IMG/VR virus record: IMGVR_UViG_3300043205_000037
Coordinates: 1-24,602 of that record
From: a virus
Lineage: Duplodnaviria > Caudoviricetes
Reading direction: 5' to 3' (one strand)
Length of the DNA stretch: 24,602 bases
Part shown: positions 3,218-22,156 of the stretch, in pieces
Layout of the letters: the number at the start of each line of letters is the position of its first letter
How positions within the stretch are numbered: the stretch's first letter is position 1
The notes under the pieces: model-generated
The model's database searches: none
Seen by the model: the letters and a program-made list of their open reading frames with translations, nothing else
Told to the model about the DNA's origin: nothing
Made by a program: the position numbers and the translations under genes

Positions 3218-3224
3218 ATCGGAC

Positions 3225-3494: not shown

Positions 3495-3950
3495 TCATCG
3501 TTCTCGAGAGCGCCCCGGTTTCAATTGTCGCCGAAGATTATCGGCTATCGAGCGGAGTTTGGGGTCGGGTCCTTCGTATTGCACTGCCTCAACCGCATCG
3601 CGAATCTTGGCCACTTGATCATCAGACATGCTGCCATCGTTCGCAGGTGCATTCACAATCGAGACTTCAACGTCATCGCCGTTGTGCCGTTTTCGATAAA
3701 TGCGTCCTTCCACGAGCATACCGCTTACCAATTCGACATGGTCATGAACCTCTTTCGGCGTCGCTGAAAGGCCAGAGATTTGGACCGAATACGGCGGTTC
3801 CACAGCGTTGATTCCGCCCCAAATCATGGAATCGACCAAAGCGTCAGGGCTCTGGCCGTGCCGAGCCGGCGCACCAATCGAGGCGAGGAGCGCATGATAA
3901 AAATCGATCACCGTTTTCCATTTTGTGGCATCAAGCTCGATGGTTCGCAT
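3495..3950 (-). CDS. Barstar-family RNase inhibitor (immunity) with C-terminal extension
   Basis: MRTIELDATKWKTVIDFYHALLASIGAPARHGQSPDALVDSM fits the barstar N-terminal pattern. Starts 5 bp after a barnase-like toxin. Confidence 0.85.
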   Translation of the reverse strand: MRTIELDATKWKTVIDFYHALLASIGAPARHGQSPDALVDSMIWGGINAVEPPYSVQISGLSATPKEVHDHVELVSGMLVEGRIYRKRHNGDDVEVSIVNAPANDGSMSDDQVAKIRDAVEAVQYEGPDPKLRSIADNLRRQLKPGRSRER

Positions 3951-3955
3951 GATTC

Positions 3956-4777
3956 CTACTCGCCGCGCGGGTTCAGGTTGAGACGATAGAAGCTGCGGTA
4001 ATGATTGTTGGTGTAATACATCGCTCCAATACCAGCATCAATCACGATTCTGCCAACGCCTCTGCCGGCGCCAAGTCCCGGCACATCGAAAGCAATATAC
4101 CCGCTCGCGCCAGGAGGTAGAACAGCGCCTGTCTCATAGTGCGGACGGTTCTCGTAGGCATGCGGATACAACGTGCTGAAGTCCTGATTTAATATAAGAG
4201 TCAGTGCGTCTGCAACATTTTGCTGTTCGTCCGGCAATATCGGACCGTTCAATCCTTTTGGGTCTAACGGATCTTTTCCTGGCGGACGCGCAATCGTAAA
4301 CCCGCGAGGCGTGACCTCGTTCTGTGCAAGCCGCGGACCGTTGTCAAAAGCGTTAGCCTCGCCGGTACCGGTCTCATCCGTCAGCGTGCCGGTATCTATT
4401 GCGGCGTATCGTTTGGGCGACTCCGACCCAACGCCCGCAGCATTGAAACTATCTGCCGACGATCCGTTGCCACCGTCGCTCGTCCACTGCCCGCCATCGG
4501 GATTGCCGGCGGGCACGCGCGGTTGGTCGACGCTGTATTTTTTCAGCGCCGCCCGCAACTCCGCTTTCGCCAGCATTGCGGCCGCCTCGAAGGCTTTGTG
4601 CAGGTCGCGGGAAAGCGCCTCTAAATCGCGGCGGATCGCGGCGATCTCTGCGCGGCGCTGCCGCAGCAGTTCGTCCTCGTCCGGCCCGGCGAGCGTGCGG
4701 ATCGCTTTGGCGATCTCGAGGCGCACGTGCAACGTCTGCGGCACGGCGCTCAAGGTGCGTGGCAGCGGAGGCTTCAT
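3956..4777 (-). CDS. Polymorphic toxin: MKPPLP carrier plus barnase/RNase Sa-family ribonuclease tip
   Basis: ATG at 4777 matches the paralog starts. Tip YENR...LP...Y..FDV...RG.GRIV...YYTNNHYRSF. Adjacent barstar. Confidence 0.88.
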   Translation of the reverse strand: MKPPLPRTLSAVPQTLHVRLEIAKAIRTLAGPDEDELLRQRRAEIAAIRRDLEALSRDLHKAFEAAAMLAKAELRAALKKYSVDQPRVPAGNPDGGQWTSDGGNGSSADSFNAAGVGSESPKRYAAIDTGTLTDETGTGEANAFDNGPRLAQNEVTPRGFTIARPPGKDPLDPKGLNGPILPDEQQNVADALTLILNQDFSTLYPHAYENRPHYETGAVLPPGASGYIAFDVPGLGAGRGVGRIVIDAGIGAMYYTNNHYRSFYRLNLNPRGE

Positions 4778-4809: not shown

Positions 4810-5129
4810 CGGCACCGAAAAGGCAAAGCAGATGATGCGGGCGAGCCATTCGTCGAAATCGTCCTTGTGCTGCGGCTCCTTGGTCTGGACGACCTTTGCC
4901 GCGGTCTCGCCGGGCACGAATTTTGCCCGCCGGCGCTTGGCCAGGTCGCCGGCGAAGCCCCCACCCTTCCCTCCCCCGCAAGCGGGGGAGGGTTAGGGAG
5001 GGGGAATCCTGGAACTGCTTGATCTGGTCCGGTGTCCAGCCCTGCGGCACGCCGATCAGCGCGTCGGGGATCGAGCCTTCGGTGAAATAATCGAGCTGCC
5101 AGAGCTGGCGGCGCAGCGCGATGTTGACG
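4810..5129 (-). pseudogene. Internal portal-gene fragment interrupted by a REP palindrome
   Basis: Near-identical to portal ~12511-12796 (NIALRRQLWQ...CFAFSVP). The YWDTEF codons are replaced by a REP, causing a frameshift. Confidence 0.85.
4958..5004. repeat. REP-like palindrome
   Basis: CCCCCACCCTT-CCCTCCCCCGC-AA-GCGGGGGAGGG-TTAGGGAGGGGG. Same family as the elements at 6727, 12941 and 13708. Confidence 0.8.
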
Positions 5130-6505: not shown

Positions 6506-6516
6506 AGGAGCTCCAG

Positions 6517-6633: not shown

Positions 6634-6884
6634 CCCCTTGTGCTGCGGCTCCTTGGTCTGCACCACCTCGGCGGCCCTCTCGCCGGCACGAACTTGGTGT
6701 GGCGGCGCCCGGCGAGGTCGCCGACGCCCACACCCTTCCCTCCCCGCAAGCGGGAGAGGGTCAGGGAGGGGGTTAGTCCTCCGGACTGGCGAATCTGGCC
6801 CGGGGTCCAGCTCTGCGGCACGCCGAGCAAGGCGTCGGGGATCAAACCTTCGGTGCAGCAATCGTGCCGCCAAAGCTGGCGGCT
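6634..6884 (-). pseudogene. Degenerate portal-gene fragment with REP insertion
   Basis: Diverged copy of RQLW...TEG.IPDAL.GVPQ.WTP.QI...KFVP...VVQTKEPQHK. A REP sits at the same site as in the 4810-5129 fragment. Confidence 0.8.
6727..6772. repeat. REP-like palindrome
   Basis: CCCACACCCTTCCCTCCCCGCAAGCGGGAGAGGGTCAGGGAGGGGG. Confidence 0.75.
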
Positions 6885-7335
6885 ACGAACCATCCAGGCG
6901 ACGCGCTAATTCCTCCGCCTGCGGCAAATCGCGCTCAATGTCATGCACAACTTGTAATGACTCGTCCGCGGTCAGGAGTTTTCCCTCTTGCTCATCAAAA
7001 ACGACGCCGCCTGTCGCCCGCGCGTACGCCGTCGCCGCCATCCAAACAGCTATCAGCTCGTCAAAACCCGCTATCCAGGGGAAGGTAACAACATACTTCC
7101 AACTGTGACCGAAATTAATGTTCTTGTAGGTACTCATCAGATCCGCAGGATCCTCAATCCAACACTGAAAACTCGTTGGTCTGTCATGGAGGTGGGCGGT
7201 CAGAGTCCCACCGTCTTCATCAAACAGGACATCGTGCGCCAATCGCAAAGGCAAGCCTTCAGCGTCTAACGACCGCTGCCAGCTAGAAATTGAATCAAGT
7301 CGCGAGTCGGAGAGAACGTTGATTTCGACTGACAT
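6883..7335 (-). CDS. Putative immunity protein (family shared with 21123 and 21680)
   Basis: Follows a PD-(D/E)xK tip. Motifs VLSD.RL.SI..WQ...DAEG and W.AA.AYA.AT.GVVFD..EG shared with two paralogs that follow the homologous tip at 22157. Confidence 0.8.
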   Translation of the reverse strand: MSVEINVLSDSRLDSISSWQRSLDAEGLPLRLAHDVLFDEDGGTLTAHLHDRPTSFQCWIEDPADLMSTYKNINFGHSWKYVVTFPWIAGFDELIAVWMAATAYARATGGVVFDEQEGKLLTADESLQVVHDIERDLPQAEELARRLDGS

Positions 7336-7382: not shown

Positions 7383-8822
7383 CTAGTCCGGGTCGCCCTG
7401 CTGTGACTTTATGACTGGCCCGCGCTCGATGTGCAGATCAATGACCGGGACACGGGAGACCGCTTTTGTCGCGGCACGAAGTTGGTTCGCTCTACCTGGC
7501 CTCAGGCTAGCGTCTAGGGTCTTAACATCGTAGATCGCGATTACATCACCACTATCATTGCGCAAAACAGCATCTGGCTTGACAGCCTTTCTACGGCCAC
7601 CGTAGTCGGAAGGCAAACTGAATGTGTGCTCAACATCGGAAGGACTAATGCCGCGTATCCGCTCAGCGATTACCGCGGCAGCGAACCGCTTGTGAATCAA
7701 AATTCCATAGAAACTTGGAGATAAGTGCGTCGGAGCAGTCTCGTCGACAACCCTTGCAAGAATTTCTGACAATCTTTTGGTTGTTTCATCGATTTGCTGA
7801 ATTCCTGTCCATGCATTTGGCCCATATACAATGTCCCTCGGCGGGCCGGCATATTGCTCACCCTTGGGAACATTTGACGTGTCTGGTCGTCCCTCGGTTT
7901 CCAAAGCGGCATAGCGGGTCTCGGACCTCGAACTTTCGGCGGCAACAGGTGGGAAATTGTATGGAGTCTGACTACCCTCCCCGTCCTTCGGCCGAAACTT
8001 GCCGCCACGGCCTCCTGGGGTCCCGGTCGGCCAGCCGGGATGCTCAGGATCGTCCGAGCTCGCTTTCAGAAGCGCGAGTTTTGCGGATTGCGTCTCTGCA
8101 CCCGCGCTATGCCCATTCGCGCCCGTGCGTCCGGTGTTGGCTCCCTGCCCGCCCGCATTCGCCTCGATCGGCACAAAGCCGGTGGCGGTGAGCACCATCG
8201 GGCGGTCGGCGGCGGCGTTGTCGAAGGGGTCGAGGCCGAGGGCGTCGCGCATCTCGTTGAGCGTGAGCGCACCGACTTTCAGCCGGCCTTCGAGCACCGT
8301 CTCGGGATCGCCTTCGTCCTCGTCGAGCCAATGCAGCTCGAGATCCGGCGAGGCGAATTCCTCCGCCACGATCTCGTCGATCAAATCCTTGACCCACTCC
8401 TTGGTCGGCTCGAGCCCCTCTTCCTCGGCCTGCGCCGACTGGTTGTCGGCGGTGGCGCGGTTCATCGCCTTGGTGGCCCATTGCGGCGGCACCGAAAAGG
8501 CAAAGCAGATGATGCGGGCGAGCCACTCGTCGAAATCGTCCTTGTGCTGCGGCTCCTTGGTCTGCACGACTTTGGCCGCGGTCTCGCCGGGCACGAATTT
8601 TGCCCGCCGGCGCTTGGCCAGGTCGCCGGCGAATTCGGTGTCCCAATAATCCTGGAACTGCTTGATCTGGTCCGGCGTCCAGCCCTGCGGCACGCCGATC
8701 AGCGCGTCGGGGATCGAGCCTTCGGTGAAATAATCGAGCTGCCAGAGCTGGCGGCGCAGCGCGATGTTGACGGTCATCAACACCTGCTGCACCGGCGAGA
8801 AGCCGTAGACCCGGTGGGCGCG
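7383..8822 (-). pseudogene. 5'-truncated portal-toxin cassette with PD-(D/E)xK nuclease tip
   Basis: 8148-8822 is near-identical to the portal 3' region. It continues in frame through LLKASSDDPEHPGWP..GGRGGKFRPKD to the tip YGILIH...KPDAVLR...IYDVKT. No portal N-terminus. Open from GTG 8792. Confidence 0.85.
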
Positions 8823-8859: not shown

Positions 8860-9573
8860 TCAGTCACGGCACTCGCCGAATTCGGTTACGCGCCCGTCAT
8901 ATTTTTGGATTGAAGCGCACAAGCGGCTTGCCTCCGTAACGTCGCCTTCCTCTTTGCAGCTTCCTTTGATGCGCCAGTATTTGCCTTTGTCCTCTGCCAG
9001 CATCGGCGCTTGAACTTTAATATCATGGTGATGAGCATCAAAAAGCGCTTCGATGATGCTTGTGGCTAGCCTAGCATCAAAAACAACACCTCCGCGCGCC
9101 AATCCGGTTAAAAACATAATCCCCGACTCGGAAGCCGGGTCGGATCCTTCGTTTCTGAGCCGTGGTCCTGAAGCTGGAGCCGAATTCAAACTTGATTTCT
9201 GTTCATTATGGCCGTCGCGTATTGCTTTGACGACCAAAGGATGCGGTGGGCATCGAACATACTCGCCAAAATCGATCACTCGCGCATCACGCTTCTCAAT
9301 GGAGAGGAAGAATTCCGCAGGACCATTGATCGCTCCGTCGCGGTTTCGATTGCCTTCGACACGCCAATAATCTCCCCTATCTATCAACGACAGCGGCGAT
9401 TGCTCCCGAAGGTCGCCATAATGCGCCTCGCAAAATAACTCCGCGAGCTTGATTGCTAGGTTTTTATCGGACAAGAGGTCATCTGAGAACGTTTCCATCA
9501 TGATCACAAGCCTTGCTGTGAGATGCGATGAAATCAAGCAATTGCTTCTGTCAATGCGTCGGTTTCGATCCAC
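8860..9573 (-). CDS. Immunity protein with two tandem NTF2-fold immunity (YbbC/YhhH-like) domains
   Basis: Internal duplication: LAIKLAELFCEAHYG..QSPL...GDYWRVEG...SIEKRDARVIDFGE versus LATSIIEALFDAHH..QAPM...GKYWRIKG...SIQKYDGRVTEFGE. True start may be ATG 9501. Confidence 0.75.
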   Translation of the reverse strand: MDRNRRIDRSNCLISSHLTARLVIMMETFSDDLLSDKNLAIKLAELFCEAHYGDLREQSPLSLIDRGDYWRVEGNRNRDGAINGPAEFFLSIEKRDARVIDFGEYVRCPPHPLVVKAIRDGHNEQKSSLNSAPASGPRLRNEGSDPASESGIMFLTGLARGGVVFDARLATSIIEALFDAHHHDIKVQAPMLAEDKGKYWRIKGSCKEEGDVTEASRLCASIQKYDGRVTEFGECRD

Positions 9574-11029
9574 GCGGCAGCAGCTTAAGCGGAGGCAACT
9601 CGGTCACACTGTACTCCTTTCCCGGCCCAGGCGCTCGGATAAAGAAGACCCTCATAGGTGGAAAGGGGGCACCGGGCTCCCAGCCCAGTTCCGTAACGCG
9701 AAGATCATTGCTATAGACGTGCCACCCCAGCTGCATCATTTGAAGATAGATAGTCTGATTTGGTGTTAGAGTTATAGTTTCGTCGCCGGTCTTTATTTCA
9801 AGAACTGAGGGCCCCATGCCAGGCATAATCGCTATGATATCGGGATATCCAAGAATATCTTCCGGCAAACCGATCATATGCACGGCCGGCTCCTTGATGG
9901 CCGGTATACCGATGCTCTTAAGATAAGCCATCCAGTGATTGACATTCGCTTCGTGAAATCCCGCACTGAAGTCTACGACAGGAATCGGTGCCGCGGCGCT
10001 TGAAAAATCAGTCGCAGCATCCTTCGGGCGAAACTTTCCGCCCTTCCCTCCGGCGGTTCTTGCGGGCCATCCGGGGTGTTCAGGATCGTCCGGGCTCGCT
10101 TTTCCAAGCGCGTGATTCGCGAACCGCTTTCCCACATTTGCACTTTGCCCGTTCGCGTTGGCATTTCCGTCACTCGCCCCCTCCCCGCCCGCATTGGCCT
10201 CGATCGGCACAAAGCCCGTCGCCGTGAGCACCATCGGGCGATCGGCTGCGGCGTTGTCGAAGGGGTCGAGGCCGAGGGCGTCGCGCATTTCGTTGAGGGT
10301 AAGCGCGCCGACTTTCAACCGGCCTTCCAGCACCGTCTCGGGATCGCCCTCGTCCTCGTCGAGCCAATGCAGCTCGAGATCGGGCGAGGCAAATTCCTCC
10401 GCCACGATCTCGTCGATCAGATCCTTGACCCACTCCTTGGTCGGCTCGAGCCCCTCCTCTTCGGCCTGCGCCGATTGATTCTCCGCCGTGGCGCGGTTCA
10501 TCGCCTTGGTGGCCCATTGCGGCGGCACCGAAAAGGCAAAGCAGATGATGCGGGCGAGCCACTCGTCGAAATCGTCCTTGTGCTGTGGCTCTTTGGTCTG
10601 GACGACCTTGGCCGCCGTCTCGCCGGGCACGAATTTTGCGCGCCGCCGCTTGGCCAGGTCGCCTGCGAACTCGGTGTCCCAATAATCCTGGAACTGCTTG
10701 ATCTGGTCCGGCGTCCAGCCCTGCGGCACGCCGATCAGCGCGTCGGGGATCGAGCCTTCGGTGAAATAGTCGAGCTGCCAGAGCTGGCGGCGCAGCGCGA
10801 TATTGACCGTCATCAGCACCTGCTGCACCGGCGAAAAACCGTAGACCCGGTGAGCGCGCACGTTGCGCGGCCGGTAGACGATATCGCGCGCCGAGTAATT
10901 GACCGCGGGCAGGCCTTTGAGCACCTGCTGATAGGCCGGCGGATAGATCGTCGTGCCGTCGGCCGCGGCGAACGGCTGCGGCGTGCGGCCCCAATCGTCG
11001 ATGACGCGCTTGATGGTCGCGCCGTCGAG
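9551..11029 (-). pseudogene. 5'-truncated portal-toxin cassette with a second PD-(D/E)xK nuclease tip
   Basis: 10175-11031 is near-identical to portal 12163-13051. The frame opens after a TAG (CAG in the full portal). Junction LGKASPDDPEHPGWP..GGKGGKFRPKD. Tip GYPDII...VLEIKTG...LTPNQ. Confidence 0.85.
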
Positions 11030-11069
11030 CTATCCAATTGAGTTGGACCGCCGGCGGATTCCCTAGGTC

Positions 11070-11564
11070 TTAATCCAACACGGTACCTCGCCGAGCACCA
11101 TCATATGCGAGATCCTGAAAATCCTTCGGAAAATATTGCCGCTGAAGGTCGTCCACAATTTCATTCGCGCGAATGGAAATGCCCATATTGGGCCAATCTT
11201 TCAGGTGGTTCCACAGTCCCACCATGAGATCAATTCGCCAACCGGGAAACTCCTTCACTAGCTCCTGAAGCGCACTGACAACCGGGCGCTCCAACAGTTT
11301 GAGGTTATGAACGAAGACAACAACTTGCGGATATTCGCTATAATCGCCGTGGACCGAATAATCACCATGGCGCTGTCCTGGTAAAAAATCAGGCCTGCCA
11401 AAGCGCTCGAGCAGTGCATCGACGCGAGGGTAGAGCCGCTCAAAAACATCATATTGCTCGGCTTGGCGACGATCGTACTCGTCCCGACTCATCGTATTGA
11501 TGTCATCTCTAGTTATCATTTTCTGCTGCTCCCGATCATCGCTAGACGGCTTAGTCTGGATCAC
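11070..11564 (-). CDS. Putative immunity protein for the portal-fused toxin
   Basis: 164 aa, acidic, lower GC. Overlaps the portal-toxin stop, with GGAGG upstream of the GTG start. Confidence 0.75.
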   Translation of the reverse strand: MIQTKPSSDDREQQKMITRDDINTMSRDEYDRRQAEQYDVFERLYPRVDALLERFGRPDFLPGQRHGDYSVHGDYSEYPQVVVFVHNLKLLERPVVSALQELVKEFPGWRIDLMVGLWNHLKDWPNMGISIRANEIVDDLQRQYFPKDFQDLAYDGARRGTVLD

Positions 11565-13653
11565 CGCCCCTGCCTCCTCTTATTCCGCGCGGGCCGTAAA
11601 CACGAATATATCTCAATACTTCCCGTTGGATCTTTAGTACCAGTCCATGAATTCTGGGCTCGCTCGACGCCTTAACTTCCTCGATGAGTTCGCGCGCTTG
11701 ATCCGGTGTCATCTGCTCAGAGGTTATCTTATTCCTATTCAAGTAGGCTTCAAATAGCTCATCTACCGCCTCGTTGTATTCAATATGCTCTGCGTTGTTC
11801 CTATTAACGCTTGGATCAGCAAGTGTGCCCGACTTCGTCTTATCAAAGACCTCCCATGTTTCCGGCTTGATGTCCTTTTTATTGTAAACCACCTTCGGAA
11901 CCCAATGATGCCCCTCACCATATCTCTGATAGCGCACCAGGGCATCATCGGGCCCATCCGATTTATCATTCTCATCATCGGCTGCTGCAATTCTAGTCCA
12001 CTGGCCAGCGCCAGGATTGCGCTTGGGCACACGTGGTTCACCAGGGTCGTAACCATATTTTTGAATGAGAGGTGTCCCGTTATTTCGCTTGCGGAGGCTC
12101 GATATATTGGTTTGTTGAGCAACAACTAGTTGTTCACCCCCGCTTTGCTCGCCAGCGTCTTTCGCCCCTTCCCCGCCCGCATTCGCCTCGATCGGCACAT
12201 AACCCGTCGCCGTGAGCACCATCGGGCGGTCGGCGGCGGCGTTGTCGAAGGGGTCGAGGCCGAGCGCGTCGCGCATCTCGTTGAGCGTGAGCGCGCCGAC
12301 TTTCAGCCGGCTTTCGAGCACCGTCTCGGGATCGCCTTCGTCCTCGTCGAGCCAATGCAGCTCGAGATCGGGCGACGAAAATTCCTCCGCCACGATCTCG
12401 TCGATCAAATCCTTGACCCATTCCTTGGTCGGCTCGAGCCCCTCCTCTTCGGCCTGCGCCGATTGATTCTCCGCGGTGGCGCGGTTCATCGTCTTGGTGG
12501 CCCATTGCGGCGGCACCGAAAACGCAAAGCAGATGATGCGGGCGAGCCATTCGTCGAAATCGTCCTTGTGCTGCGGCTCCTTGGTCTGGACGACCTTTGC
12601 CGCGGTCTCGCCGGGCACGAATTTTGCCCGCCGGCGCTTGGCCAGGTCGCCGGCGAATTCGGTGTCCCAATAATCCTGGAACTGCTTGATCTGGTCCGGC
12701 GTCCAGCCCTGCGGCACGCCGATCAGCGCGTCGGGGATCGAGCCTTCGGTGAAATAATCGAGCTGCCAGAGCTGACGGCGCAGCGCGATGTTGACGGTCA
12801 TCAGCACCTGCTGCACCGGCGAGAAGCCGTAGACCCGGTGGGCGCGCACGTTGCGCGGCCGGTAGACGATGTCGCGCGCCGAATAATTGACCGCCGGCAG
12901 GCCTTTGAGCACCTGCTGATAGGCCGGCGGATAGACCATTCCCCCACCCTTCCCTCCCCCGCTTGCGGGGGAGGATAGGAGGGGGTCCCAATACGGCTGC
13001 GGCGTGCGGCCCCAATCGTCGATCACGCGCTTGATGGTCGCGCCGTCGAGCTGCTGCAGCGCGCAGAGCTGGCCGGAGCGCGTGCGCTGGCAATACAGCG
13101 TCGCCGCGTCGATGACGAACATGTCCTCGAGCAGCGCCCGCAGCCAGGTCTTCCAGCGCGTGATGCCGTCGGGCTTTTGCAAGAAAGCCTCGATGCCGGC
13201 GATGCGCGCGGTCACGTCGGGATCGATCGCGGCGCTGCGACGCTTGGATTTTGCATCGCGCGGCCGGATGCGCCAGCGCTGGCGCTCCATCTGGTCCTTG
13301 CGTGTCTCGATGACCAGCCGCAACAGATCGTAGGCGTCGGCGAAACCGCGCAGCTCGGCAAAACCGATGCTCTCGTAGGCACGCGGCCGGGTGACGAGGT
13401 TGTAGCCGGGCGGGAAGTCGAACCGCCTGCCGGCGACGTCGGGCGGCGCGATCGGCCGCATCGGGTCGAGCGGGCCGAACCAGTCGGCGCCCGAGCCGCG
13501 CGCAATGCCATTGCTTGACGTGGCTTGGCTCGACGTGCCTTGGCTCGACGTGCCTTGGCTCGACGTGCTTTGGCTTTGGCCGTAGGACACCTGGATCTGA
13601 TACGGCGACAGCGGCCAAGTCGGCTGGCCGGCGCCGCGCACCTGTTCGCTCAT
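11551..13653 (-). CDS. Phage portal protein fused to a C-terminal HNH/AHH-like nuclease toxin (700 aa)
   Basis: Start MSEQVRG with AGGA RBS. Portal motifs LEDMFVIDA, LDGATIK, YGFSPV, YFTEGSIP, ICFAFSVPP, LTLNEMR..LGLDP. Then KYGYDPGEPRVPKRNPGAGQWT and a lower-GC tip GHHWVP...H.EYN..V. Lies between terminase and protease. Confidence 0.9.
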   Translation of the reverse strand: MSEQVRGAGQPTWPLSPYQIQVSYGQSQSTSSQGTSSQGTSSQATSSNGIARGSGADWFGPLDPMRPIAPPDVAGRRFDFPPGYNLVTRPRAYESIGFAELRGFADAYDLLRLVIETRKDQMERQRWRIRPRDAKSKRRSAAIDPDVTARIAGIEAFLQKPDGITRWKTWLRALLEDMFVIDAATLYCQRTRSGQLCALQQLDGATIKRVIDDWGRTPQPYWDPLLSSPASGGGKGGGMVYPPAYQQVLKGLPAVNYSARDIVYRPRNVRAHRVYGFSPVQQVLMTVNIALRRQLWQLDYFTEGSIPDALIGVPQGWTPDQIKQFQDYWDTEFAGDLAKRRRAKFVPGETAAKVVQTKEPQHKDDFDEWLARIICFAFSVPPQWATKTMNRATAENQSAQAEEEGLEPTKEWVKDLIDEIVAEEFSSPDLELHWLDEDEGDPETVLESRLKVGALTLNEMRDALGLDPFDNAAADRPMVLTATGYVPIEANAGGEGAKDAGEQSGGEQLVVAQQTNISSLRKRNNGTPLIQKYGYDPGEPRVPKRNPGAGQWTRIAAADDENDKSDGPDDALVRYQRYGEGHHWVPKVVYNKKDIKPETWEVFDKTKSGTLADPSVNRNNAEHIEYNEAVDELFEAYLNRNKITSEQMTPDQARELIEEVKASSEPRIHGLVLKIQREVLRYIRVYGPRGIRGGRGGDPD
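12941..12985. repeat. REP-like palindrome inserted in frame in the portal gene
   Basis: CCCCCACCCTTCCCTCCCCCGCTTGCGGGGGAGGATAGGAGGGGG, translated as PLLSSPASGGGKGG. Absent from the portal copy at ~10947-10975. Confidence 0.85.
13524..13568. repeat. 15-bp tandem repeat, 3 perfect copies
   Basis: CTTGGCTCGACGTGC x3, encoding TSSQG/TSSQA repeats in the portal N-terminus. Confidence 0.9.
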
Positions 13654-14045: not shown

Positions 14046-14777
14046 TCAATGATTGCACTGCCGAGAATTGTCGTAACGATCAAGCGGGCAAATGGTGACA
14101 AAATAAAAATGCCGGAACATGCGGGAATCGCGAGAAACCGGTGTGCCTGATACTTCCGACGACATGTGATAACCCTCGAATGGTCCAGCACAAATCCCGG
14201 AACGGAGCCCGGTCGCATCGCTCTCATCATAGGCGACCCCAATACCGCAAGGCGCAGTGTCAGCCCAGCCCCACACCTTGAATCGCGGCTTGTCGGCGGG
14301 CAGCCTGGATATCTCGGCCGTGTAACGAGGATACATGACGGAAAGATAGACGTAGTCCCCGCCGCGCCTGAAGGCATCGAGATTGGCTGCCGCAACAATC
14401 GCGGTCAGCAGCAAAATGAGCGTGGATAACAGCCGACGCCAAGTGTGTTTGAGTCCGTGCTCGACACAGTTCATCGCGGCAATAATGGCGACGGTTACGC
14501 CCGCCCCGCCCCAGAACAAAAACAACAGGGGAATGAAGAATGCGTATAGAAAATATGGACCGGCAATCCCAAAGGCAGTGGCCAGCGGACAGGCCTTCGC
14601 AATGTCGGCGCCGTCGCAAGCAAAAGTGGCAAGGCCGAAAGGGACAAAGACAATATACAGGAGGGATTTGAGGAATGGACCCGGATAAGCAATCAAGCAG
14701 GTCAGCGCACAGCCAGCAGCGGTAGCGACCGGCCAATAGAGAATTCGGTCGTCAGTCGCGCCTTGCACGGCAGTCAT
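14046..14777 (-). CDS. Membrane immunity protein (DRILYWP family)
   Basis: Multi-pass hydrophobic N-terminus with C-terminal PRFK.W...CG.G.AYDESD...HFYF. ATGA overlap with the Ntox44-like toxin. Confidence 0.8.
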   Translation of the reverse strand: MTAVQGATDDRILYWPVATAAGCALTCLIAYPGPFLKSLLYIVFVPFGLATFACDGADIAKACPLATAFGIAGPYFLYAFFIPLLFLFWGGAGVTVAIIAAMNCVEHGLKHTWRRLLSTLILLLTAIVAAANLDAFRRGGDYVYLSVMYPRYTAEISRLPADKPRFKVWGWADTAPCGIGVAYDESDATGLRSGICAGPFEGYHMSSEVSGTPVSRDSRMFRHFYFVTICPLDRYDNSRQCNH

Positions 14778-15847
14778 CGCCCCGGCCGAATACGTCCCGA
14801 TTGGTACAATCTATAGCCCAGTTTCGTATCTTCGACATCCTGCTTCGCCGAATGAGTGTAGACGTCGTCCAGCCGGTCATTACGGCCGAATCGGGAAAAA
14901 TTTAGGGCATAATCGTCTATTGTCGAGAGGACATCGTTCTGATCCAAGCCTGCTGCCGCGCCGTAAACGCCGATCATGATGTTCAGATAGTGGCGGTAAT
15001 CGATAACACGACTGAAGTCGAAACGTTCGGCATCCAGAGACCCTCCAGGGGAAACAGGAAGCAGCAACGAATAAAGGATCCCCCGAGCCACAGACGGTGT
15101 AACGTCCCAAGGCCCGACCTGATCTTGCGGGCTCATCAACGCGCTCAACGCTGTCCCCGAGAATGGGTTTGCCAAGCCCGCCTGAACATATCTTTCCGGT
15201 GGCATGCTAGCAGGCCGAAAAATAGGTTGACCCTGATTGTCGTGGATCGGGACGCCATCACTGTCCACAAATTCCACTGGGGCCCTTGGATGATCCTCAG
15301 GAAGTGTATACGACCAAATATTCTGACGCCGCGGATCATGTACAGTCAGAAGAGTGTAGAGCACACCAGGAAGGTTACCCTGAATTGACGTGTCGTACGC
15401 GGCCGTGTTGGCCGCGTTGCGGCTTGTCTCGTCCGTACGCGTATTAGTCTCGGCCTGAGCGTATTGCACGCGCGCACCAGAGACCTCGCTCGTGTTGTCG
15501 TCTGAAAGATGCGATGCCTCGCCGCTCCCGGCGACAGGCTCACTCCCGCTCGTCCACTGCCCACCGTCGGGGTTTCCGGCCGGCACGCGCGGCTGGTCGG
15601 GGCTGTATTTTTTCAGCTCCGATTGCAGCTCCGCCATCGCCAGTGCCGGCAATTCTTCGCCGAGCTTGCGAACGCCGCGCGCGAGCACATCCAAATCGCG
15701 GCGGATCGCGGCGATCTCCGCGCGCCGCTGCCGCAGCAATTCGTCCTCGTCCGGCCCGGCGAGCGTGCGGATCGCCTTGGCGATCTCGAGCTGGGTGTGC
15801 AAGTTCCGCGGCACGGCGGTCAAAATGCGAGGTCCGTTGGGGTTCAT
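14774..15847 (-). CDS. Polymorphic toxin: carrier domain plus Ntox44-like tip
   Basis: Carrier N-terminus (AVPRNLHTQLEIAKA...KYSPDQPRVPAGNPDGGQWT), ATGA-coupled to terL. Tip LDAER...YRHYLNIMIGVYGAAAGL...DVEDTKLGY resembles the Ntox44 NxxxG...D pattern. Confidence 0.82.
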   Translation of the reverse strand: MNPNGPRILTAVPRNLHTQLEIAKAIRTLAGPDEDELLRQRRAEIAAIRRDLDVLARGVRKLGEELPALAMAELQSELKKYSPDQPRVPAGNPDGGQWTSGSEPVAGSGEASHLSDDNTSEVSGARVQYAQAETNTRTDETSRNAANTAAYDTSIQGNLPGVLYTLLTVHDPRRQNIWSYTLPEDHPRAPVEFVDSDGVPIHDNQGQPIFRPASMPPERYVQAGLANPFSGTALSALMSPQDQVGPWDVTPSVARGILYSLLLPVSPGGSLDAERFDFSRVIDYRHYLNIMIGVYGAAAGLDQNDVLSTIDDYALNFSRFGRNDRLDDVYTHSAKQDVEDTKLGYRLYQSGRIRPGR

Positions 15848-17379
15848 GCGATCGACCCTTTGTCGTCATCGACCAACTGCTGGTAGCCGGCCTTGAGGAG
15901 GGGCTCGACGTCGCCCGGCGCCACCGCGATCACACGGTCAGCGCCGACCATATAATATGTCGTGGACAGACCATGAACGCCGGAGATGTTCTCCGGCACG
16001 CGCAAGCGGATCGTCGCCGGCGCTTCGGGGGCCGCCGCGGCCGCGGCCGGCCGGGCCTGGTCCTCCACCTTGAGACGGTAGAATTCGATGATCGCGGTGT
16101 TGTCGGCTTTCAGCATCAGCTCGGTGACGGCAAAGATCAGCGCGTCGGCGTGATCCGGACTGCCCTCGCCGCGATAGCCCGCGGTGGTGAAGGCGCAGAG
16201 CTGGTCCTCCAGCACGGCGAAACGGCCGACGTGATGTACGATACCCTGCTCGTACAGCGCCGACACCGGCTCGGCGCGCAGCACCTTGCCGCGCGAGGCC
16301 GAGATCATGTGCACCGGCAGATTGGGATCGGCGGCGCGGATGACGAAGCGCACCATCTCGCCGCCGAAATTCTCCTCCGCCACGATGCGGTCGGCGTCGA
16401 AATCGTGATAGGCCTGCACCGCGACGCGGCCCCACGCGGCGGGCGCATCGCGCAGCGAGCGGTCGGCGAGCACGTAAGCGTGGCCGTCGGCGCCGCGCGC
16501 GGCAACGACGATGCCGATCTCGTCGGCGCGTTCGTCGTCGCGGCTCGAGGCGCCCGACGGATCGACCGCGACGACGACGCGCCGGCGGTCGGCCTTCGGC
16601 AGGTCGGCAACGCGCGCGCGGGCGATCATCTCGTAGCTGAACAGCGCACCGTCGAGATTGTCGATATAGACGCCTTCGAAGAAGCGCTTGCGCTGCCGCT
16701 CGGGCAGCCGTTCGAGGCTCTTGAGGTAATCCGCCGATAGATTGTCGGCGTTGTCGCGTGGATTGAGAAATATCCGCTCGTAGTTGTCAGGATCGTCAAG
16801 CGGCAGTTGCGAGATCGGATCGCGCTTCTCGCCGAACAGAACGTTGGTCCAGTGGCCCTTGCTGGTCGGGTTCAAGTCGTAATAGGCGGCCTGGCGGAGA
16901 TCGCCGGCAACCTGCGCCAGCCGGGTCAGCGCGACCAGCACCGAGGAGTAGGGAATCTGCGAGCATTCGTTGAGAAAGATCGTGACATATTCCTTGCCCA
17001 GAATCTTCTCGACCCGCTCCTGGTCGTCGAGGCCGGCGAACCAGATTTCCGATTCGTTATTGAGCGAAAAATACCCCTCGGTGCGGTGGTGTTTGTGCGG
17101 CACCATGGGGTCCCAGAAGCGAAACACCTTCGGCAGCGTGTCAAGCGCGATCGAGGGCCGCACCGCATTGGCGCGGAACCGCAGGATAGCGTGACGCGAG
17201 GCGTCGGCGCGCAGCGCACGGGTGACGATTTCATGGACCAGGAGCGTGGTCTTGCCGGACCGCGCGCCGCCCACGAGCAGCGTGTGCCGCTGCGACCGTC
17301 CCAGGAGCTTTTGCGCGTCCTGCTGCCTGGCAGTGCGCTTGAATTGGGACTTTTGAGACGGCTCGTTCTCGCTTCCCAT
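15844..17379 (-). CDS. terL: Phage terminase large subunit
   Basis: Walker A GGARSGKT, Walker B-like IFLNE, coupling motif DLNP, nuclease motifs VVVAVDPS, IVAEENFGG and SPDHADAL. Confidence 0.93.
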   Translation of the reverse strand: MGSENEPSQKSQFKRTARQQDAQKLLGRSQRHTLLVGGARSGKTTLLVHEIVTRALRADASRHAILRFRANAVRPSIALDTLPKVFRFWDPMVPHKHHRTEGYFSLNNESEIWFAGLDDQERVEKILGKEYVTIFLNECSQIPYSSVLVALTRLAQVAGDLRQAAYYDLNPTSKGHWTNVLFGEKRDPISQLPLDDPDNYERIFLNPRDNADNLSADYLKSLERLPERQRKRFFEGVYIDNLDGALFSYEMIARARVADLPKADRRRVVVAVDPSGASSRDDERADEIGIVVAARGADGHAYVLADRSLRDAPAAWGRVAVQAYHDFDADRIVAEENFGGEMVRFVIRAADPNLPVHMISASRGKVLRAEPVSALYEQGIVHHVGRFAVLEDQLCAFTTAGYRGEGSPDHADALIFAVTELMLKADNTAIIEFYRLKVEDQARPAAAAAAPEAPATIRLRVPENISGVHGLSTTYYMVGADRVIAVAPGDVEPLLKAGYQQLVDDDKGSIA

Positions 17380-17501: not shown

Positions 17502-18200
17502 CTAGCAGGTGAGAACGAAATAGAAGTGGCCGAACGCACGGGAAACATACTCAACTTCGACGGTGCCGATACGTTCGTCTGTTACCCATCGGGTGCGAAA
17601 CACCAACGCGCCGCTCTCGTCATAGGCTATACCCGTGCCGCACGGTCCGTAGAAGTACCGTTGCCACACCTTGAACCGCGGCTCATCGGCTGGCAGTTGC
17701 GCCACTTCGACCATGTAGCCGGGATATCGGGCAAGCAGATAAATGTAGTCGCCAGCGGTATGTCCTGCGCGCCAGAAAAACTCGACATTGTACAGCGCAA
17801 CCAGCGAAACCAACGGCAAAATCACGATGGACAAGAGCCGGCGCCAAGAGTGCTTAAACCCCCTTTCCACTCCCTCCATGACGGCAATCAAAGGAACAAC
17901 CACACCCGCGCCAAGCCAGACTCCAAAGGCCAGAGGACCTATTATCAGGGAGAGCAATCCAGCGAGAATGAATGGACCGGTAATCCATGCCAACGAGCAG
18001 ACAACGCCGCCACTCTTACAGGCCGCAGCGTCAATAATGAGGGAGACGAAAGTGACGAACGGCGTGAACGGGCCACAAATGAGCTGAACGAGGAACGTAT
18101 CGGACCAGGCGAGTATACAGATCACCGGACAGCCAATGGCGATAGCAAGAGGCCAATAGAGAACTCGGTCGTTATCTGCCCCTTGCACGCCGGACCTCAT
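17502..18200 (-). CDS. Membrane immunity paralog (DRVLYWP family), orphan
   Basis: Collinear similarity to 14046..14777 along its whole length. No toxin immediately upstream. Confidence 0.8.
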   Translation of the reverse strand: MRSGVQGADNDRVLYWPLAIAIGCPVICILAWSDTFLVQLICGPFTPFVTFVSLIIDAAACKSGGVVCSLAWITGPFILAGLLSLIIGPLAFGVWLGAGVVVPLIAVMEGVERGFKHSWRRLLSIVILPLVSLVALYNVEFFWRAGHTAGDYIYLLARYPGYMVEVAQLPADEPRFKVWQRYFYGPCGTGIAYDESGALVFRTRWVTDERIGTVEVEYVSRAFGHFYFVLTC

Positions 18201-18227
18201 TCACGGCGCAGCCGAATGCGCTGCCGC

Positions 18228-18788
18228 CTAGCAATCATGGCCGACAAAGTAGAAATGGCCGAAGATCGGTGTGTAGCCGTACACGCAATTTGCATCGGTC
18301 AAGGCGGCTCGTCTCTTCCACGCGTCGGAGCGCTCGGTCGCCGGCCGCGTGATCTCATCGCTTGCATCGTACACGACCCCGCGCGATACCGCTAAAAATC
18401 CACCCCAATCCTGGAACATGAACCGCGGCTCGTCAGTAGGCAGCTTCGATATCTCGATGAGATAGATCGGTAGCATGGCGTAAAAATGGACGTAGTCTCC
18501 GGCCCCTTGTCCGGCGCGCCAAGCAAAGCCCGGATTGAGACCCGCCACGAGCACGGTCAGCGGCAACACAATCGTCGACAAGAACCGGCGCCACGTCCGC
18601 AGATAGAGCCATGCCAAACAAATCAAAGTAGCGACTCCAGCTGATAAGGCCCACAAGGCAATGACCAACGGACCGCCATAGAATGATAAGTCAAACGGCC
18701 CCGCCCAAGCCAAAATAAAGGCGATAGGCCAAGCCACAGAGAGAATGATCGGCCAGTAGAGGATGCGATCTGGACGACCAAATTGCAT
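18228..18788 (-). CDS. Membrane immunity paralog (DRILYWP family)
   Basis: DRILYWP, WRRFLS, GDYVHF, EPRF, VYDASD and FGHFYF motifs. Follows an orphan tip. Confidence 0.8.
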   Translation of the reverse strand: MQFGRPDRILYWPIILSVAWPIAFILAWAGPFDLSFYGGPLVIALWALSAGVATLICLAWLYLRTWRRFLSTIVLPLTVLVAGLNPGFAWRAGQGAGDYVHFYAMLPIYLIEISKLPTDEPRFMFQDWGGFLAVSRGVVYDASDEITRPATERSDAWKRRAALTDANCVYGYTPIFGHFYFVGHDC

Positions 18789-18800
18789 GTCGTTCTCCGG

Positions 18801-19020
18801 CTATCGTCCGGCCGCGATTCGACCGGACTCGTAAAGATCGTAACCCATCTTCATGTCGAGCACGTCCCGCTTTGGCAAATGGGTGTAGATTTCATCCATT
18901 GGCTCATGGAAGCTGGAAGAATACTTTGCATAGGTGTCTGCAAACCACATACCGTCCTCAAATTTAATTCCCGCTGCGGCAAAATAAAGGCCAATCACAA
19001 GGTTTGCATAGTCGCGGTAG
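18801..19020 (-). pseudogene. Orphan Ntox44-like toxin tip fragment
   Basis: YRDYANLVIGLYFAAAGI...MDEIYTHLPKRDVLDMKMGYDLYESGRI. Abuts a copy of the terL 5' end instead of a carrier. Confidence 0.8.
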
Positions 19021-19168
19021 CAGCGTGTGCCGCTGCGACCTTCCCAGGAGCTCTTGCGCGTCCTGCTGCCTGGCAGTGCGCTTGAATTGGGAGTCTTGAG
19101 ACGGCTTGCGCTCGGTTCCCGTTCGCGTTCTGTCGTTTTGTTGTTCGGTGAATCACACTCCTGCGCCA
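19019..19168 (-). repeat. Direct-repeat copy of terL 5' end and leader (17276-17425)
   Basis: Collinear near-identity by eye. The terL ATG is ACG in this copy. Confidence 0.88.
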
Positions 19169-19277
19169 AGGGGCGCTTACGGTTAAGCCAAGATCAAGAG
19201 AGCTAACTTGCGGTCTGTTGGTTCTAATCGGCGAAGTCCGTCTCTGCTGGGCTCGGCGCTTTGCGCTCGGCCTGCTA

Positions 19278-19838
19278 CTAACAAAAGGTCGCGAAATAGA
19301 AATGTCCGAATGCGCGGGAGTTGCCGTGCACGTCCACCGTGCCAACAAGTCCATCGCTCGTCGAGCGGTGCCTGGACGCAATCGCGTCGCTTTCATCGTA
19401 GGCAATCCCGCTGCCGCAAGGCCCGGCGAAATGCCATTGCCACGCCTTAAAGCGCGGTTCCGGCAGGTCCGATATCTCGGCCATGTACCAAGGATACAAG
19501 GCAAAGAGGTGAACATAATCGCCTGACGCGGCAGCCGACTGCCAAGCCCATCCGAGATTCACTCCGGTTACGACCATGACCAGCAGCAGGATCAGCTTCG
19601 ACGGGAAACGGCGCCATTCGCGTTGGTAGGCCGAGACGGCAAGCGCCAGGGCATCGAGATAAGTCAAGCCGGCCCAGGCGACAAAGACGACGAGCAATAT
19701 CGCGCCACAGATGAAGAGGACAATGATTCGATCGCTTACAATATCGATAAGAATACGGACACCAAAAACGGACAATGGTCCAAGCACCGCAAAGATCCAC
19801 GTCCAAATTCGCACGCGACTATCAAGTGTGCTCTGCAT
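19278..19838 (-). CDS. Membrane immunity protein (same family as DRILYWP proteins)
   Basis: Hydrophobic N-terminus, then GDYVHL..YP.Y..EIS.LPEPRFK.W...CG.GIAYDESD...FGHFYF. Directly after the Ntox44-like toxin. Confidence 0.8.
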   Translation of the reverse strand: MQSTLDSRVRIWTWIFAVLGPLSVFGVRILIDIVSDRIIVLFICGAILLVVFVAWAGLTYLDALALAVSAYQREWRRFPSKLILLLVMVVTGVNLGWAWQSAAASGDYVHLFALYPWYMAEISDLPEPRFKAWQWHFAGPCGSGIAYDESDAIASRHRSTSDGLVGTVDVHGNSRAFGHFYFATFC

Positions 19839-19850
19839 CTCAGATACCGT

Positions 19851-20957
19851 CTATCGTCTCAACCGAATGCGCCCGGACTCGTACAATCTATAGCCCAATT
19901 TCGTGTCTTCGACATCCTGCTTGGCTGAGTGCGTGTAGACTTCGTCCATCAACTCTTCGGTCGCGAATGTCGATTTGCGGGAGGCGTAGAAATCTATGGC
20001 GGAGAGGACGTCTTCGCGGTTTAAACCCGCAGCCGCAGAATAAACACCGATCATTATGTTTAGATAGTGGCGATAGTCGAGAACGTAATTCCCATCGAAC
20101 CGTTCAGCGTCCAACAATCCTCCGGGCGCGACTGGAAGTAATGCCGAATAAAGTGCGACTACCGCACCTAAGACCTTGGCGTCCGAAACCCCATCACCCG
20201 TCCCAGGCTGCAGCAATCCAGCGGATTGCGCGCCCAAAAATCGATTTGCAAGTCCAGCTCGGAGATATCTTTCGGGCGGAAGGTCATCCGGTCTGGAGAT
20301 GGGATTATCCAGGATGTCGAGAACGGGTTGGCCATCACTGTCTACGAATCGCACCGGATGCCTTGGATGATCCGCCACTATCTCATTCGACCAAATCAAG
20401 TCACGAGGTATTGTCGATTGGACAGTGTGGAGCACGCTCTGAAGATTGGTCAGAATTTGCGTGTCTTGCGTGGCGCTGTCTGTCGTACCGCCGCTCCTGC
20501 CCACCGCCGCCGGACTCGTGCCTGGAATTTCCAGCGACGCATACCGTATGCGCGTTTCAGCATTTTCATTAACGGCATCTGCTTGACCATCCTTGGGCCG
20601 GAATCGACCTCCCTGGCGGTCTGGCGCTCCAGCCGGCCAACCTGGATGCTCTGGGTCATCGACTGCTGCTTTCGTGGTTCCACGGCGGTCCGGCACCCGC
20701 GGATGGTCGGGGTTATATTTTCTCGGTGTCCCGCACAGCTCCGCTTTCACCAGCGCCGAAGCCTCCTTGAAGGCCCTCGGAATCTCGCGGGCAAGCGCCT
20801 CCAGGTCTTGGCGGATGGCGGCGATCTCAGCACGGCGCTGGCGCAGCGGATCATCCCCATTGGGCGCCGTCAGCGTGCGGACGGCCTTGGCGATTTCGAG
20901 CTGCGCGTGCAGCGTTCGCGGCACGGCGCTCTCGATACGCGGCAGCGGTGGTTTCAT
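19851..20957 (-). CDS. Polymorphic toxin: MKPPLP carrier plus Ntox44-like tip
   Basis: ATG at 20957 matches the paralogs. Contains both KYNPDHPRVP and DDPEHPGWP..GGRFRPKD motifs. Tip strongly similar to that of 14774..15847. Confidence 0.83.
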   Translation of the reverse strand: MKPPLPRIESAVPRTLHAQLEIAKAVRTLTAPNGDDPLRQRRAEIAAIRQDLEALAREIPRAFKEASALVKAELCGTPRKYNPDHPRVPDRRGTTKAAVDDPEHPGWPAGAPDRQGGRFRPKDGQADAVNENAETRIRYASLEIPGTSPAAVGRSGGTTDSATQDTQILTNLQSVLHTVQSTIPRDLIWSNEIVADHPRHPVRFVDSDGQPVLDILDNPISRPDDLPPERYLRAGLANRFLGAQSAGLLQPGTGDGVSDAKVLGAVVALYSALLPVAPGGLLDAERFDGNYVLDYRHYLNIMIGVYSAAAGLNREDVLSAIDFYASRKSTFATEELMDEVYTHSAKQDVEDTKLGYRLYESGRIRLRR

Positions 20958-20989
20958 CGGATTGGCCTTTTCCGCGCCGAGCGCCGCGA

Positions 20990-21119
20990 TCATTCGAACG
21001 CGATGTTGATGGCGCGAAGCCCGCGGTGGGTACGATCGATCTCGAAGCTGACCGGCCGGCCCTCGAAAAGCGCGCCGGCATTCGCCGGCAGGTCGGTGCG
21101 ATGCACGAACACGTCGCCC
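20990..21119 (-). pseudogene. Duplicated 3' part of the cold-shock gene (copy of 23342-23471)
   Basis: 130-bp collinear near-identical repeat encoding [10 protein letters not shown]...AINIAFE*. No 5' end. Confidence 0.9.
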
Positions 21120-21122
21120 CAA

Positions 21123-21602: not shown

Positions 21603-21679
21603 GACGAGCGCCGTCGACCTCAGGTCAATGAATGCGCAGGCTTGATAACTTGCATGTTCGGGGCACATTCTCTGACAGA

Positions 21680-22123: not shown

Positions 22124-22156
22124 GTGAAAGCCCTCCCGCCTCCATTGCCGCCACGA

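What the first reader, a model, noticed from the sequence alone, without database searches (positions are those of the whole stretch)
11070..13653. Portal protein directly fused to a nuclease-like toxin with coupled immunity gene
Seen: the only full-length portal reads without a stop past its normal end (LTLNEMR..LGLDP...PIEANAGG) into a linker, the DPGEPRVP...GQWT motif and a lower-GC GHHWVP...HxxYN tip. An overlapping acidic gene follows. Known: portals are dodecamers whose C-terminal crown faces the capsid interior. Inference: up to 12 toxin copies could be loaded per head next to the DNA exit channel.
Basis: partly seen in the sequence, partly recalled or inferred. Interest (0 to 1): 0.88.

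Follow-up and report, generated by a model that had tools for sequence, protein, structure and literature searches.

The report
Phage portal carrying swappable toxin tips
In soil bacteria, the DNA-doorway (portal) protein of a resident phage-like particle is fused to interchangeable toxin-type domains, each followed by its own likely antidote gene, and the toxins are likely clipped off inside the particle's head and injected into rival cells.

Summary
The fusion is real, and it is part of a larger system. The 700-aa ORF (13653-11551) is a portal whose crown continues into a tag and a divergent AHH-like (probably HNH nuclease) tip. The same tip ends RHS toxins. A dedicated partner gene follows 44 of 44 such tips. 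Two 5'-truncated portal cassettes with other tips follow in the window. Seventeen portals at 90% identity or more carry five unrelated tip classes, and tip class is random on the portal tree: this is a polymorphic toxin system carried by the portal. A hydrophobic-x-Lys site precedes the tag in nearly all tips and matches the propeptide boundary of the putative capsid protein, so the prohead protease likely frees the toxin inside the head (inferred). The same tag and toxins ride on short helical leaders and on a second portal lineage. The host element is a head-tail-lysis cluster beside aspS in one Xanthobacteraceae genus, with no integrase recognised. Toxicity, cleavage and injection are untested. 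MuF toxins and portal-fused enzymes are known; my ten paper searches found no portal-borne polymorphic toxin system. The scan earlier noted only a similar integrase-less cluster elsewhere.

The parts
12178..13653 (-). portal core (residues 1-492) of the fusion, ending in the crown motif and PIEANA
   Evidence: Pfam PF04860 and PHROG 2662; profile match to phage 812 portal 8Q7D, E 1e-8
12058..12177 (-). variable linker ending in Ile-Gln-Lys532, the predicted prohead-protease site
   Evidence: Lys just before the tag in 69 of 70 type A and 23 of 23 type B distinct sites; hydrophobic residue two before the Lys in 82 of 83; cleavage inferred
11995..12057 (-). conserved tag (YxPxxPRVP...GQWT), the predicted new N-terminus after cleavage
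   Evidence: shared by portal tips, helical-leader toxins and a second portal lineage; function unknown
11551..11928 (-). GHH...H..Y tip, a divergent AHH-like and probably HNH/EndoVII nuclease
   Evidence: conservation; weak Pfam AHH in 11 of 28 members; Atlas SHH/GHH2/AHH 0.90-0.92; hhalign to 7 AHH members 40%, E 3e-4, controls 0.2%; RHS carriers
11070..11564 (-). cognate partner, likely immunity gene (start 11564 or 11519); no known family
   Evidence: follows 44 of 44 tips; no Pfam, PHROG or Atlas hit
9551..11031 (-). orphan 5'-truncated portal with a different tip (restriction-nuclease-like by motif)
   Evidence: 90.6% DNA identity to copy 1 over 897 nt; type B tag after Lys; tip class 6
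8860..9501 (-). Imm-NTF2-2 immunity gene of that cassette
   Evidence: Pfam PF15631 E 7e-9
7383..8822 (-). second orphan truncated portal with a third tip (restriction-nuclease-like by motif)
   Evidence: 95.5% to copy 1 over 686 nt; this tip class sits on 8 of 17 full-length portals at 90% or more
6883..7335 (-). likely immunity gene of the third tip
   Evidence: the same family follows this tip class elsewhere; no Pfam hit
4810..5129 (-). portal remnant broken by a palindromic insertion; another remnant at 6636-6883
3495..4777 (-). helical-leader + tag + barnase-like RNase, followed by barstar
   Evidence: PF00545 and PF01337, both over cut-off
1580..2766 (-). helical-leader + tag + unassigned tip, followed by a small Cys-rich partner
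321..1337 (-). XkdF-like prohead protease, the candidate processing enzyme
   Evidence: PF14550 E 5e-5, just under cut-off; PHROG head maturation proteases E 2e-7
14046..15847 (-). helical-leader + tag + Ntox44-like tip, followed by a membrane partner
   Evidence: PF15607 weak, E 0.03; 531 proteins share the leader
15844..17379 (-). terminase large subunit
   Evidence: Pfam and PHROG
17502..23308 (-). two more leader-tag-toxin genes (23308-22157, 20957-19851) with partner and orphan partner genes

Best explanation
This is a polymorphic toxin system whose carrier is the portal protein of a resident phage-like head-tail cluster: tips are swapped among portal copies, and the toxin is likely cut free by the prohead protease inside the head and likely injected into non-immune neighbours. 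Shown: the fusion, the tip-specific partner genes, the orphan cassettes, the tip exchange and the conserved hydrophobic-x-Lys plus tag. Inferred: the CI-like repressor with an S24 peptidase triggers production after DNA damage. Twelve portals then bring up to twelve tips inside the prohead, and helical-leader toxins are co-loaded. The XkdF-like protease cuts after Lys532, freeing a 168-aa (19 kDa) tagged nuclease. The tag directs retention or ejection, and the partner protein protects producer and kin.
For: Tip diversity: 17 distinct full-length portals at 90% or more carry 5 tip classes, and 48 of 52 at 75% or more have extensions of 80 aa or longer. Tip class is unclustered on a tree of the portal N-terminus: 27 changes against a shuffled mean of 27.2, 45 rows. 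L003 and L007 (87-93% identical, on 717-kb and 178-kb contigs) hold two tips in reciprocal order. Known toxin families sit on such portals or their stubs: barnase with barstar, CdiA RNase A, Tox-REase-5, Ntox37. The tip also ends RHS proteins. Partner coupling is 44 of 44 versus 1 of 114. Lys precedes the tag in 69/70, 23/23 and 81/81 sites, and in 62/70 among 50%-identity representatives, against 3.9% background. The putative capsid protein has a Lys at the start of its conserved part in 34 of 39 copies, exactly where its PHROG match begins (residue 52). Precedents: the last 124 residues of the Mu portal are missing from virions and ascribed to protease I (PMC11915804, passages); T4 internal proteins lose capsid-targeting propeptides and are ejected (PMC7411985, passages). 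Portal and terminase show dN/dS 0.17 and 0.15 (7 loci).
Against: No activity, cleavage, particle or injection data. The Lys counts come from homologous sequences and are not independent. The capsid-protein assignment rests on gene position (its PHROG has no function). Nuclease assignment is weak: below the Pfam cut-off, one His fewer than the AHH definition, and hhalign only 40%. An active DNase in a DNA-filled head is a problem I cannot resolve. Many copies of the element are frameshifted or carry truncated tips. Only 22 of 101 sampled genomes of the genus match. Distances of aspS did not correlate with portal or terminase (r -0.13 and 0.02, n = 7), so vertical descent is not shown.
Confidence: 0.6

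Rival explanations
1. The tips are toxins and are cut off, but they leave the prohead with other cleaved peptides and act as diffusible bacteriocins released by lysis, not as injected cargo.
For: Proheads expel cleaved material (PMC7411985, passages). The element has lysis genes. It avoids a DNase sitting with packaged DNA.
Against: No receptor-binding or translocation domain was seen beyond a 20-aa tag. The identified tips are nucleases that need the cytoplasm. A folded 19-kDa domain is large for capsid pores (own knowledge).
Confidence: 0.15
2. The cassettes are selfish toxin-immunity modules accumulating in a decaying prophage, maintaining it by addiction; they are never delivered.
For: Many remnants, frameshifts and orphan partner genes (23 of 68 partner hits lack an adjacent tip). 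Patchy presence in the genus. Other mobile genes are inserted in the array.
Against: In-frame fusion at one point of the portal in 48 of 52 close portals. The Lys site and tag are kept across carriers. Purifying selection on portal and terminase. Capsid-protein matches are mostly single-copy and 89-94% identical to the query across species.
Confidence: 0.12
3. One reading: the tips stay attached to the portal crown and act there or leave with the DNA without cleavage, or they act in the producer (for example cutting host DNA for packaging).
For: The crown faces inward and its termini may contact DNA in phage 812 (PMC12886913, passages). No small terminase was recognised in the close group.
Against: A portal stays in the virion (own knowledge). 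The tips are freely exchangeable and include RNases, which does not fit a packaging role. A conserved cleavage-type site precedes them.
Confidence: 0.1
4. The fusion is an assembly artefact of the repeated portal copies.
For: L063, identical to the window over 10,645 nt upstream, has another tip on the full portal, switching inside a 176-nt identical stretch.
Against: The portal-end-to-tip junction lies in one contig of run X1. Eleven other full-length portals carry this tip class, and portal-plus-toxin architectures recur in many records. At most, which tip is in first position is uncertain.
Confidence: 0.02

Closest known systems
MuF polymorphic toxins of temperate phages (Zhang 2012, PMC3482391; Jamet 2017, PMC5576092; Apk2, PMC10083569; passages read)
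   Same: Toxin domains with adjacent immunity genes in the head-packaging module, predicted to be loaded into heads and co-injected. Related phage portals are fused to MuF at the same position (L107, L112, L113, Brevundimonas phage Polewnik).
   Different: No MuF domain: the portal itself is the carrier (12 copies versus 1-2 for SPP1 gp7). There are arrays of orphan portal-stub cassettes, a shared cleavage site and tag, and a second leader-type carrier.
Portal-fused enzymatic effectors (2H, Nudix, ART; Iyer 2022, PMC9503650, passages read)
   Same: Enzyme domains fused to portal or other head proteins, proposed to be packaged and injected.
   Different: Those are described as anti-defence or host-takeover effectors of phages. 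The passages read mention no cognate immunity, orphan cassettes or tip exchange.
CDI/Rhs polymorphic toxins with orphan cassettes
   Same: Conserved carrier, variable C-terminal tip, cognate immunity and orphan modules; the same tip domain occurs on RHS proteins.
   Different: The carrier and predicted delivery route are a phage head, not type V or VI secretion.
RcGTA-type gene transfer agents and PBSX-like defective phages (properties recalled)
   Same: Head-tail-lysis cluster at a fixed chromosomal site with no integrase or replication genes recognised; RcGTA-like tail genes (DUF2460, hub, Rcc01698, GTA_TIM); XkdF-like protease as in PBSX.
   Different: The head genes are not RcGTA-type (nearest solved portal is phage 812's; nearest annotated phage is Polewnik, 51%). 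It has a CI-like repressor and a GcrA-like gene. Toxin cargo is not part of these systems as I recall them.
Tox-AHH / Tox-SHH HNH nucleases (Zhang 2012, table passages)
   Same: GHH motif, a later His and Tyr, similar size, C-terminal toxin position.
   Different: Below the Pfam cut-offs; only one His in the second motif; its partner belongs to no listed immunity family.

Membership tests
Polymorphic toxin system (Zhang 2012) | Conserved N-terminal carrier with variable C-terminal toxin domains | tested here: met
   5 tip classes on 17 portals at 90% or more; random on the tree; known toxin families
Polymorphic toxin system (Zhang 2012) | Tip-specific immunity gene directly downstream | tested here: met
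   44 of 44 versus 1 of 114; barstar, Imm-NTF2-2 and weak Imm32 after other tips; genomic coupling only
Polymorphic toxin system (Zhang 2012) | Orphan toxin-immunity cassettes that recombine with the main gene | tested here: met
   stubs in the window; reciprocal order in L003 and L007
Polymorphic toxin system (Zhang 2012) | Toxin released by proteolysis | tested here: inconclusive
   conserved site only
Polymorphic toxin system (Zhang 2012) | Toxicity neutralised by the partner; delivery to other cells | not testable with these tools
   needs experiments
MuF toxins (Jamet 2017) | N-terminal MuF1/MuF2 domain (PF04233/PF06152) | tested here: not met
   only Phage_portal hits P0001 at E up to 0.1, while MuF is detected on related phage portals
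MuF toxins (Jamet 2017) | MuF3/MuF4 custom profiles | not tested
   profiles are in supplements that I did not open; the 40-aa linker leaves no room for such a domain
MuF toxins (Jamet 2017) | Located in the head-packaging module with a small downstream ORF | tested here: met
   terminase, portal and protease order
Tox-AHH (PF14412) | [AG]HH and terminal His/Tyr | tested here: met
   His 143 and 141, later His 150 and Tyr 148 of 151 aligned rows
Tox-AHH (PF14412) | Two His in the second motif; Pfam cut-off | tested here: not met
   one His; best E 8.6e-4 in 11 of 28 members, none for the window's tip
HNH/EndoVII fold | Structural match to a solved HNH nuclease | tested here: inconclusive
   model pLDDT 88; no significant Foldseek or VIA match
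Tox-SHH (PF15652) | [SG]HH, H motif and profile match | tested here: inconclusive
   motif present; Atlas 0.92; no Pfam hit; hhalign to one member 0.4%
RcGTA-type gene transfer agent | RcGTA-like tail genes | tested here: met
   DUF2460, hub, Phage-tail_3, Rcc01698_C, GTA_TIM in G001 and G002
RcGTA-type gene transfer agent | RcGTA-type head genes (HK97-family portal, S78 protease, capsid) | tested here: not met
   XkdF-like protease, PHROG 2662 portal, PHROG 13692 putative capsid; portal core does not align by BLAST to P0264
RcGTA-type gene transfer agent | No integrase or replication genes, fixed site | tested here: inconclusive
   aspS upstream in 18 of 27 close loci; none recognised in five genomes, but only part of the genes were scanned; right flanks differ
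RcGTA-type gene transfer agent | Vertical inheritance | tested here: inconclusive
   Mantel tests not significant with 7 loci; L004+L043 pair in all three trees, L005+L011 supported only in portal and terminase trees
RcGTA-type gene transfer agent | Packages and transfers random host DNA | not testable with these tools
   needs particles

The most novel reading that the evidence does not exclude
A domesticated siphovirus-like particle serves soil Alphaproteobacteria as a capsid-loaded toxin injector. A portable 'hydrophobic-x-Lys + YxPxQPRVPAG...GGQWT' tag makes any portal or short leader into a cargo carrier that the prohead protease processes, and the same tag has armed a second, RcGTA-type portal lineage. 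It would be an undescribed interbacterial weapon class and a general capsid-loading signal.
Probability: 0.35. Interest if true: 0.9.

Novelty: new variant of a known kind. Interest (0 to 1): 0.76.

Why it matters
Whether phage heads really deliver polymorphic toxins has been open since MuF toxins were described (PMC10083569 still lists it as future work). Here the carrier is an essential 12-copy virion protein with a predicted cut site, so virion proteomics gives a yes-or-no answer. If it holds, resident GTA-like particles double as kin-discriminating weapons in soil, and the tag offers a way to load proteins into phage heads. The tip and its partner are also an unnamed toxin family (730 clusters at 50% identity) and an unnamed likely immunity family.

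Tried and rejected
Tip-partner co-folding gave no answer (score 0.01); it is not used either way. Fold searches of the tip model found nothing significant (Foldseek best E 1.6; VIA best Z 4.2), and the PDB sequence search gave only unrelated helices. The full-length portal model was queued and never finished (last try), so crown geometry rests on the sequence profile match. L063 first looked like a tip swap in the same strain. I rejected it as evidence: the switch lies in a 176-nt identical stretch and could be an assembly path. Zero depth over the tip in run X2 was not used, because only about 86% of the run was read. Runs with small shares are not used for habitat. The aspS-versus-element Mantel test was underpowered. 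The Atlas gave no usable hit for the partner. Pfam named no family for the window's other tips; their labels are by motif. A sequence search for a solved capsid relative failed, and two paper searches for Lys cleavage by XkdF-like proteases gave nothing relevant, so that precedent is not cited. Four of five look-ups of earlier findings returned nothing. G000 is only the window, so element context comes from relatives.
Full report
OBSERVATION. The ORF at 13653..11551 (minus strand) is 700 aa without a stop. It matches Phage_portal over residues 157-465 and PHROG 2662. After the crown motif (455) and PIEANA (487-492) come a 40-aa linker, Lys532, the tag (533-553) and a tip with GHH (581-583) and HIEYN (623-627). 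GC drops from 0.66 to 0.50. The partner gene overlaps by 14 nt if it starts at GTG 11564; pI is 5.1. One contig of run X1 spans 10973-12241 without differences (X1 may be the source sample). The held genome is only this contig, a virus record.

THE LOCUS. The portal is followed by two 5'-truncated portal copies (90.6% and 95.5% identical to it) with different tips and partners, and by two remnants. One partner is Imm-NTF2-2. Five further genes share a helical leader of about 90 aa plus the same tag; one ends in a barnase-like RNase followed by barstar. Terminase lies upstream and an XkdF-like protease downstream.

TIPS ARE SWAPPED. Related loci numbered 62 from genomes and 64 from viral contigs (the best 80 of 216 stretches). 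Among distinct closed full-length portals, 17 at 90% identity or more carry five tip classes (8, 5, 2, 1, 1; window and L063 included). Forty-eight of 52 at 75% or more have extensions of at least 80 aa, three of these truncated or frameshifted. On a tree of the portal N-terminus (45 rows with an assigned tip class; L063 left out), eight classes need 27 changes against a shuffled mean of 27.2. L003 and L007, 87-93% identical, carry two cassettes in reciprocal order. Named tips include barnase, CdiA RNase A, Tox-REase-5 and Ntox37 (53 proteins scanned). L063 shows another tip on a near-identical portal, but the switch is inside a 176-nt identical stretch, so I do not count it; it also means the window's own tip order is not fixed by short reads.

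THE TIP AND ITS PARTNER. The family has 730 clusters at 50% identity. In 151 aligned rows the two His of GHH are kept in 143 and 141, the later His in 150 and Tyr in 148. Two members are RHS proteins in which the tip follows DPxGL (the role of that motif as the RHS cleavage site is recalled). Family evidence is consistent but weak: Pfam AHH in 11 of 28 members, best E 8.6e-4; Atlas SHH, GHH2 and AHH at 0.90-0.92; hhalign to seven AHH members 40%, E 3e-4, against 0.2% for two controls. It lacks one of AHH's two later His (definition from PMC3482391). A confident model (pLDDT 88) matched no solved fold. I put nuclease activity at about 75%. The partner family follows 44 of 44 tips that reach their C-terminus with room downstream (identical copies included) and 1 of 114 other portal extensions; 23 of 68 partner hits are orphans.

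PREDICTED PROCESSING. A Lys lies in the four residues before the tag in 69 of 70 distinct type A portal sites, at one position in 23 of 23 type B sites, in 81 of 81 leader proteins and in 62 of 70 representatives; background is 3.9%. Two residues before it stands L, V, I or F in 82 of 83 sites, background 11%. These are homologues, so the counts show conservation, not independence. The gene after the protease, taken as the capsid protein from its position, has such a Lys at the start of its conserved part in 34 of 39 copies (four others are fragments, one is divergent), where its PHROG match begins. The portal's nearest solved relative is that of phage 812; the match puts the last portal motif in the crown, which is inside the capsid (PMC12886913). 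Mu's portal lacks its last 124 residues in virions, ascribed to protease I (PMC11915804), and T4 ejection proteins lose targeting propeptides (PMC7411985). I infer cleavage after Lys532 inside the prohead, freeing a 19-kDa tagged toxin.

THE ELEMENT. In relatives the order is aspS, CI-like repressor with S24 peptidase, GcrA-like, DUF6362, a hypothetical gene, cold-shock gene, terminase, portal, protease, putative capsid, connectors, a long-tail module with RcGTA-like genes and lysis genes. Of 27 close loci with 9 kb or more upstream, 18 show aspS, 22 the repressor and 27 terminase; in the other nine the 10-kb flank does not reach aspS. I recognised no integrase or replication gene in five genomes, but scanned only part of the genes; right flanks differ. 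Matches occur in 22 of 101 sampled genomes of one genus (completeness unknown) and 4 of 301 of the family. dN/dS is 0.17 for portal and 0.15 for terminase; congruence with aspS was not shown. Related portals at 50-70% are short or fused to MuF, as in Brevundimonas phage Polewnik, so the tag-toxin likely took the place of MuF.

BEYOND THIS PORTAL. The helical leader is shared by 531 proteins. The tag and the same tip also sit on a second portal lineage (P0264, P0221), whose core does not align to this one by BLAST; I call it RcGTA-type from a recalled motif and did not test those loci for GTA status. Three of 80 loci of that lineage have fused extensions, one an RNase A tip, and four more have a tagged gene nearby.

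WHAT IS KNOWN. I ran ten full-text searches and read passages, not whole texts, of PMC3482391, PMC5576092, PMC9503650, PMC7824862, PMC10083569, PMC3185693, PMC11915804, PMC12886913, PMC7411985 and bioRxiv 10.1101/2021.10.19.465003 (no occurrence of 'portal'). MuF toxins are established, and portal-fused 2H, Nudix and ART domains are noted. None of the passages describes a portal as the carrier of polymorphic toxins with immunity and orphan stubs, or this tag. The library lacks most subscription papers, PMC3482391 is held only in part, and I opened no supplements, which may list such architectures.

VERDICT. Real; a new variant of phage-head-linked polymorphic toxins. The architecture and tip exchange are shown; cleavage, packaging, injection and toxicity are inferred. 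Unexplained: how a DNase would coexist with packaged DNA, what the tag does, and why no small terminase was seen in the close group.

Noticed in passing
window 12940-12990; also 4955-5005 and 13708-13745: A REP-like palindrome is inserted in frame in the full-length portal, adding about 11 aa relative to the second copy; a related insertion breaks the remnant, and another lies just upstream of the portal.
   Followed up: partly
window 19019-19192: Duplicate remnant of the terminase 5' end (89% to 17276-17454), amid orphan partner genes.
   Followed up: no
window 5177-6526: Nucleotidyltransferase (NTP_transf_8) plus DUF1488 gene inserted in the cassette array; an NTP_transf_8 gene also sits in the tail module of G005 (L135:11987-13021), with look-alikes in G002 and G003.
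   Followed up: partly
window 17502-19838, 14046-14777, 2933-3268: A family of membrane proteins follows Ntox44-like tips; several copies are orphans, forming a small poly-immunity run.
   Followed up: no
L019:3499-5233; window 23909-24439: Conserved regulatory block (CI-like repressor, GcrA-like gene, DUF6362, a 176-aa gene of no known family, cold-shock gene) heads the element in most close loci.
   Followed up: partly
L137, L138, L139, L140, L144, L148, L183; P0264, P0221: The same tag-toxin modules are fused to, or lie beside, a second (HK97/RcGTA-type) portal lineage.
   Followed up: partly
L127, L131, L133, L135, L217, L218: Leader-type or tagged toxin-like genes and partner-like genes are also scattered through the neck and tail module and after the lysis genes.
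   Followed up: no
L221:6884-11047 (Brevundimonas phage Polewnik): Portal-MuF fusion 51% identical to this portal, with several similar Lys sites between portal and MuF and in the following protease-like gene.
   Followed up: partly
L054:11240-13036: A distant portal-MuF fusion carries a weak intein match inside its MuF region.
   Followed up: no
P0153, P0160, P0162, P0168, P0172 and others: Many carriers of this tip have another unnamed leader with repeated Trp-x-Arg-Pro-Asp motifs before the Lys and tag.
   Followed up: no
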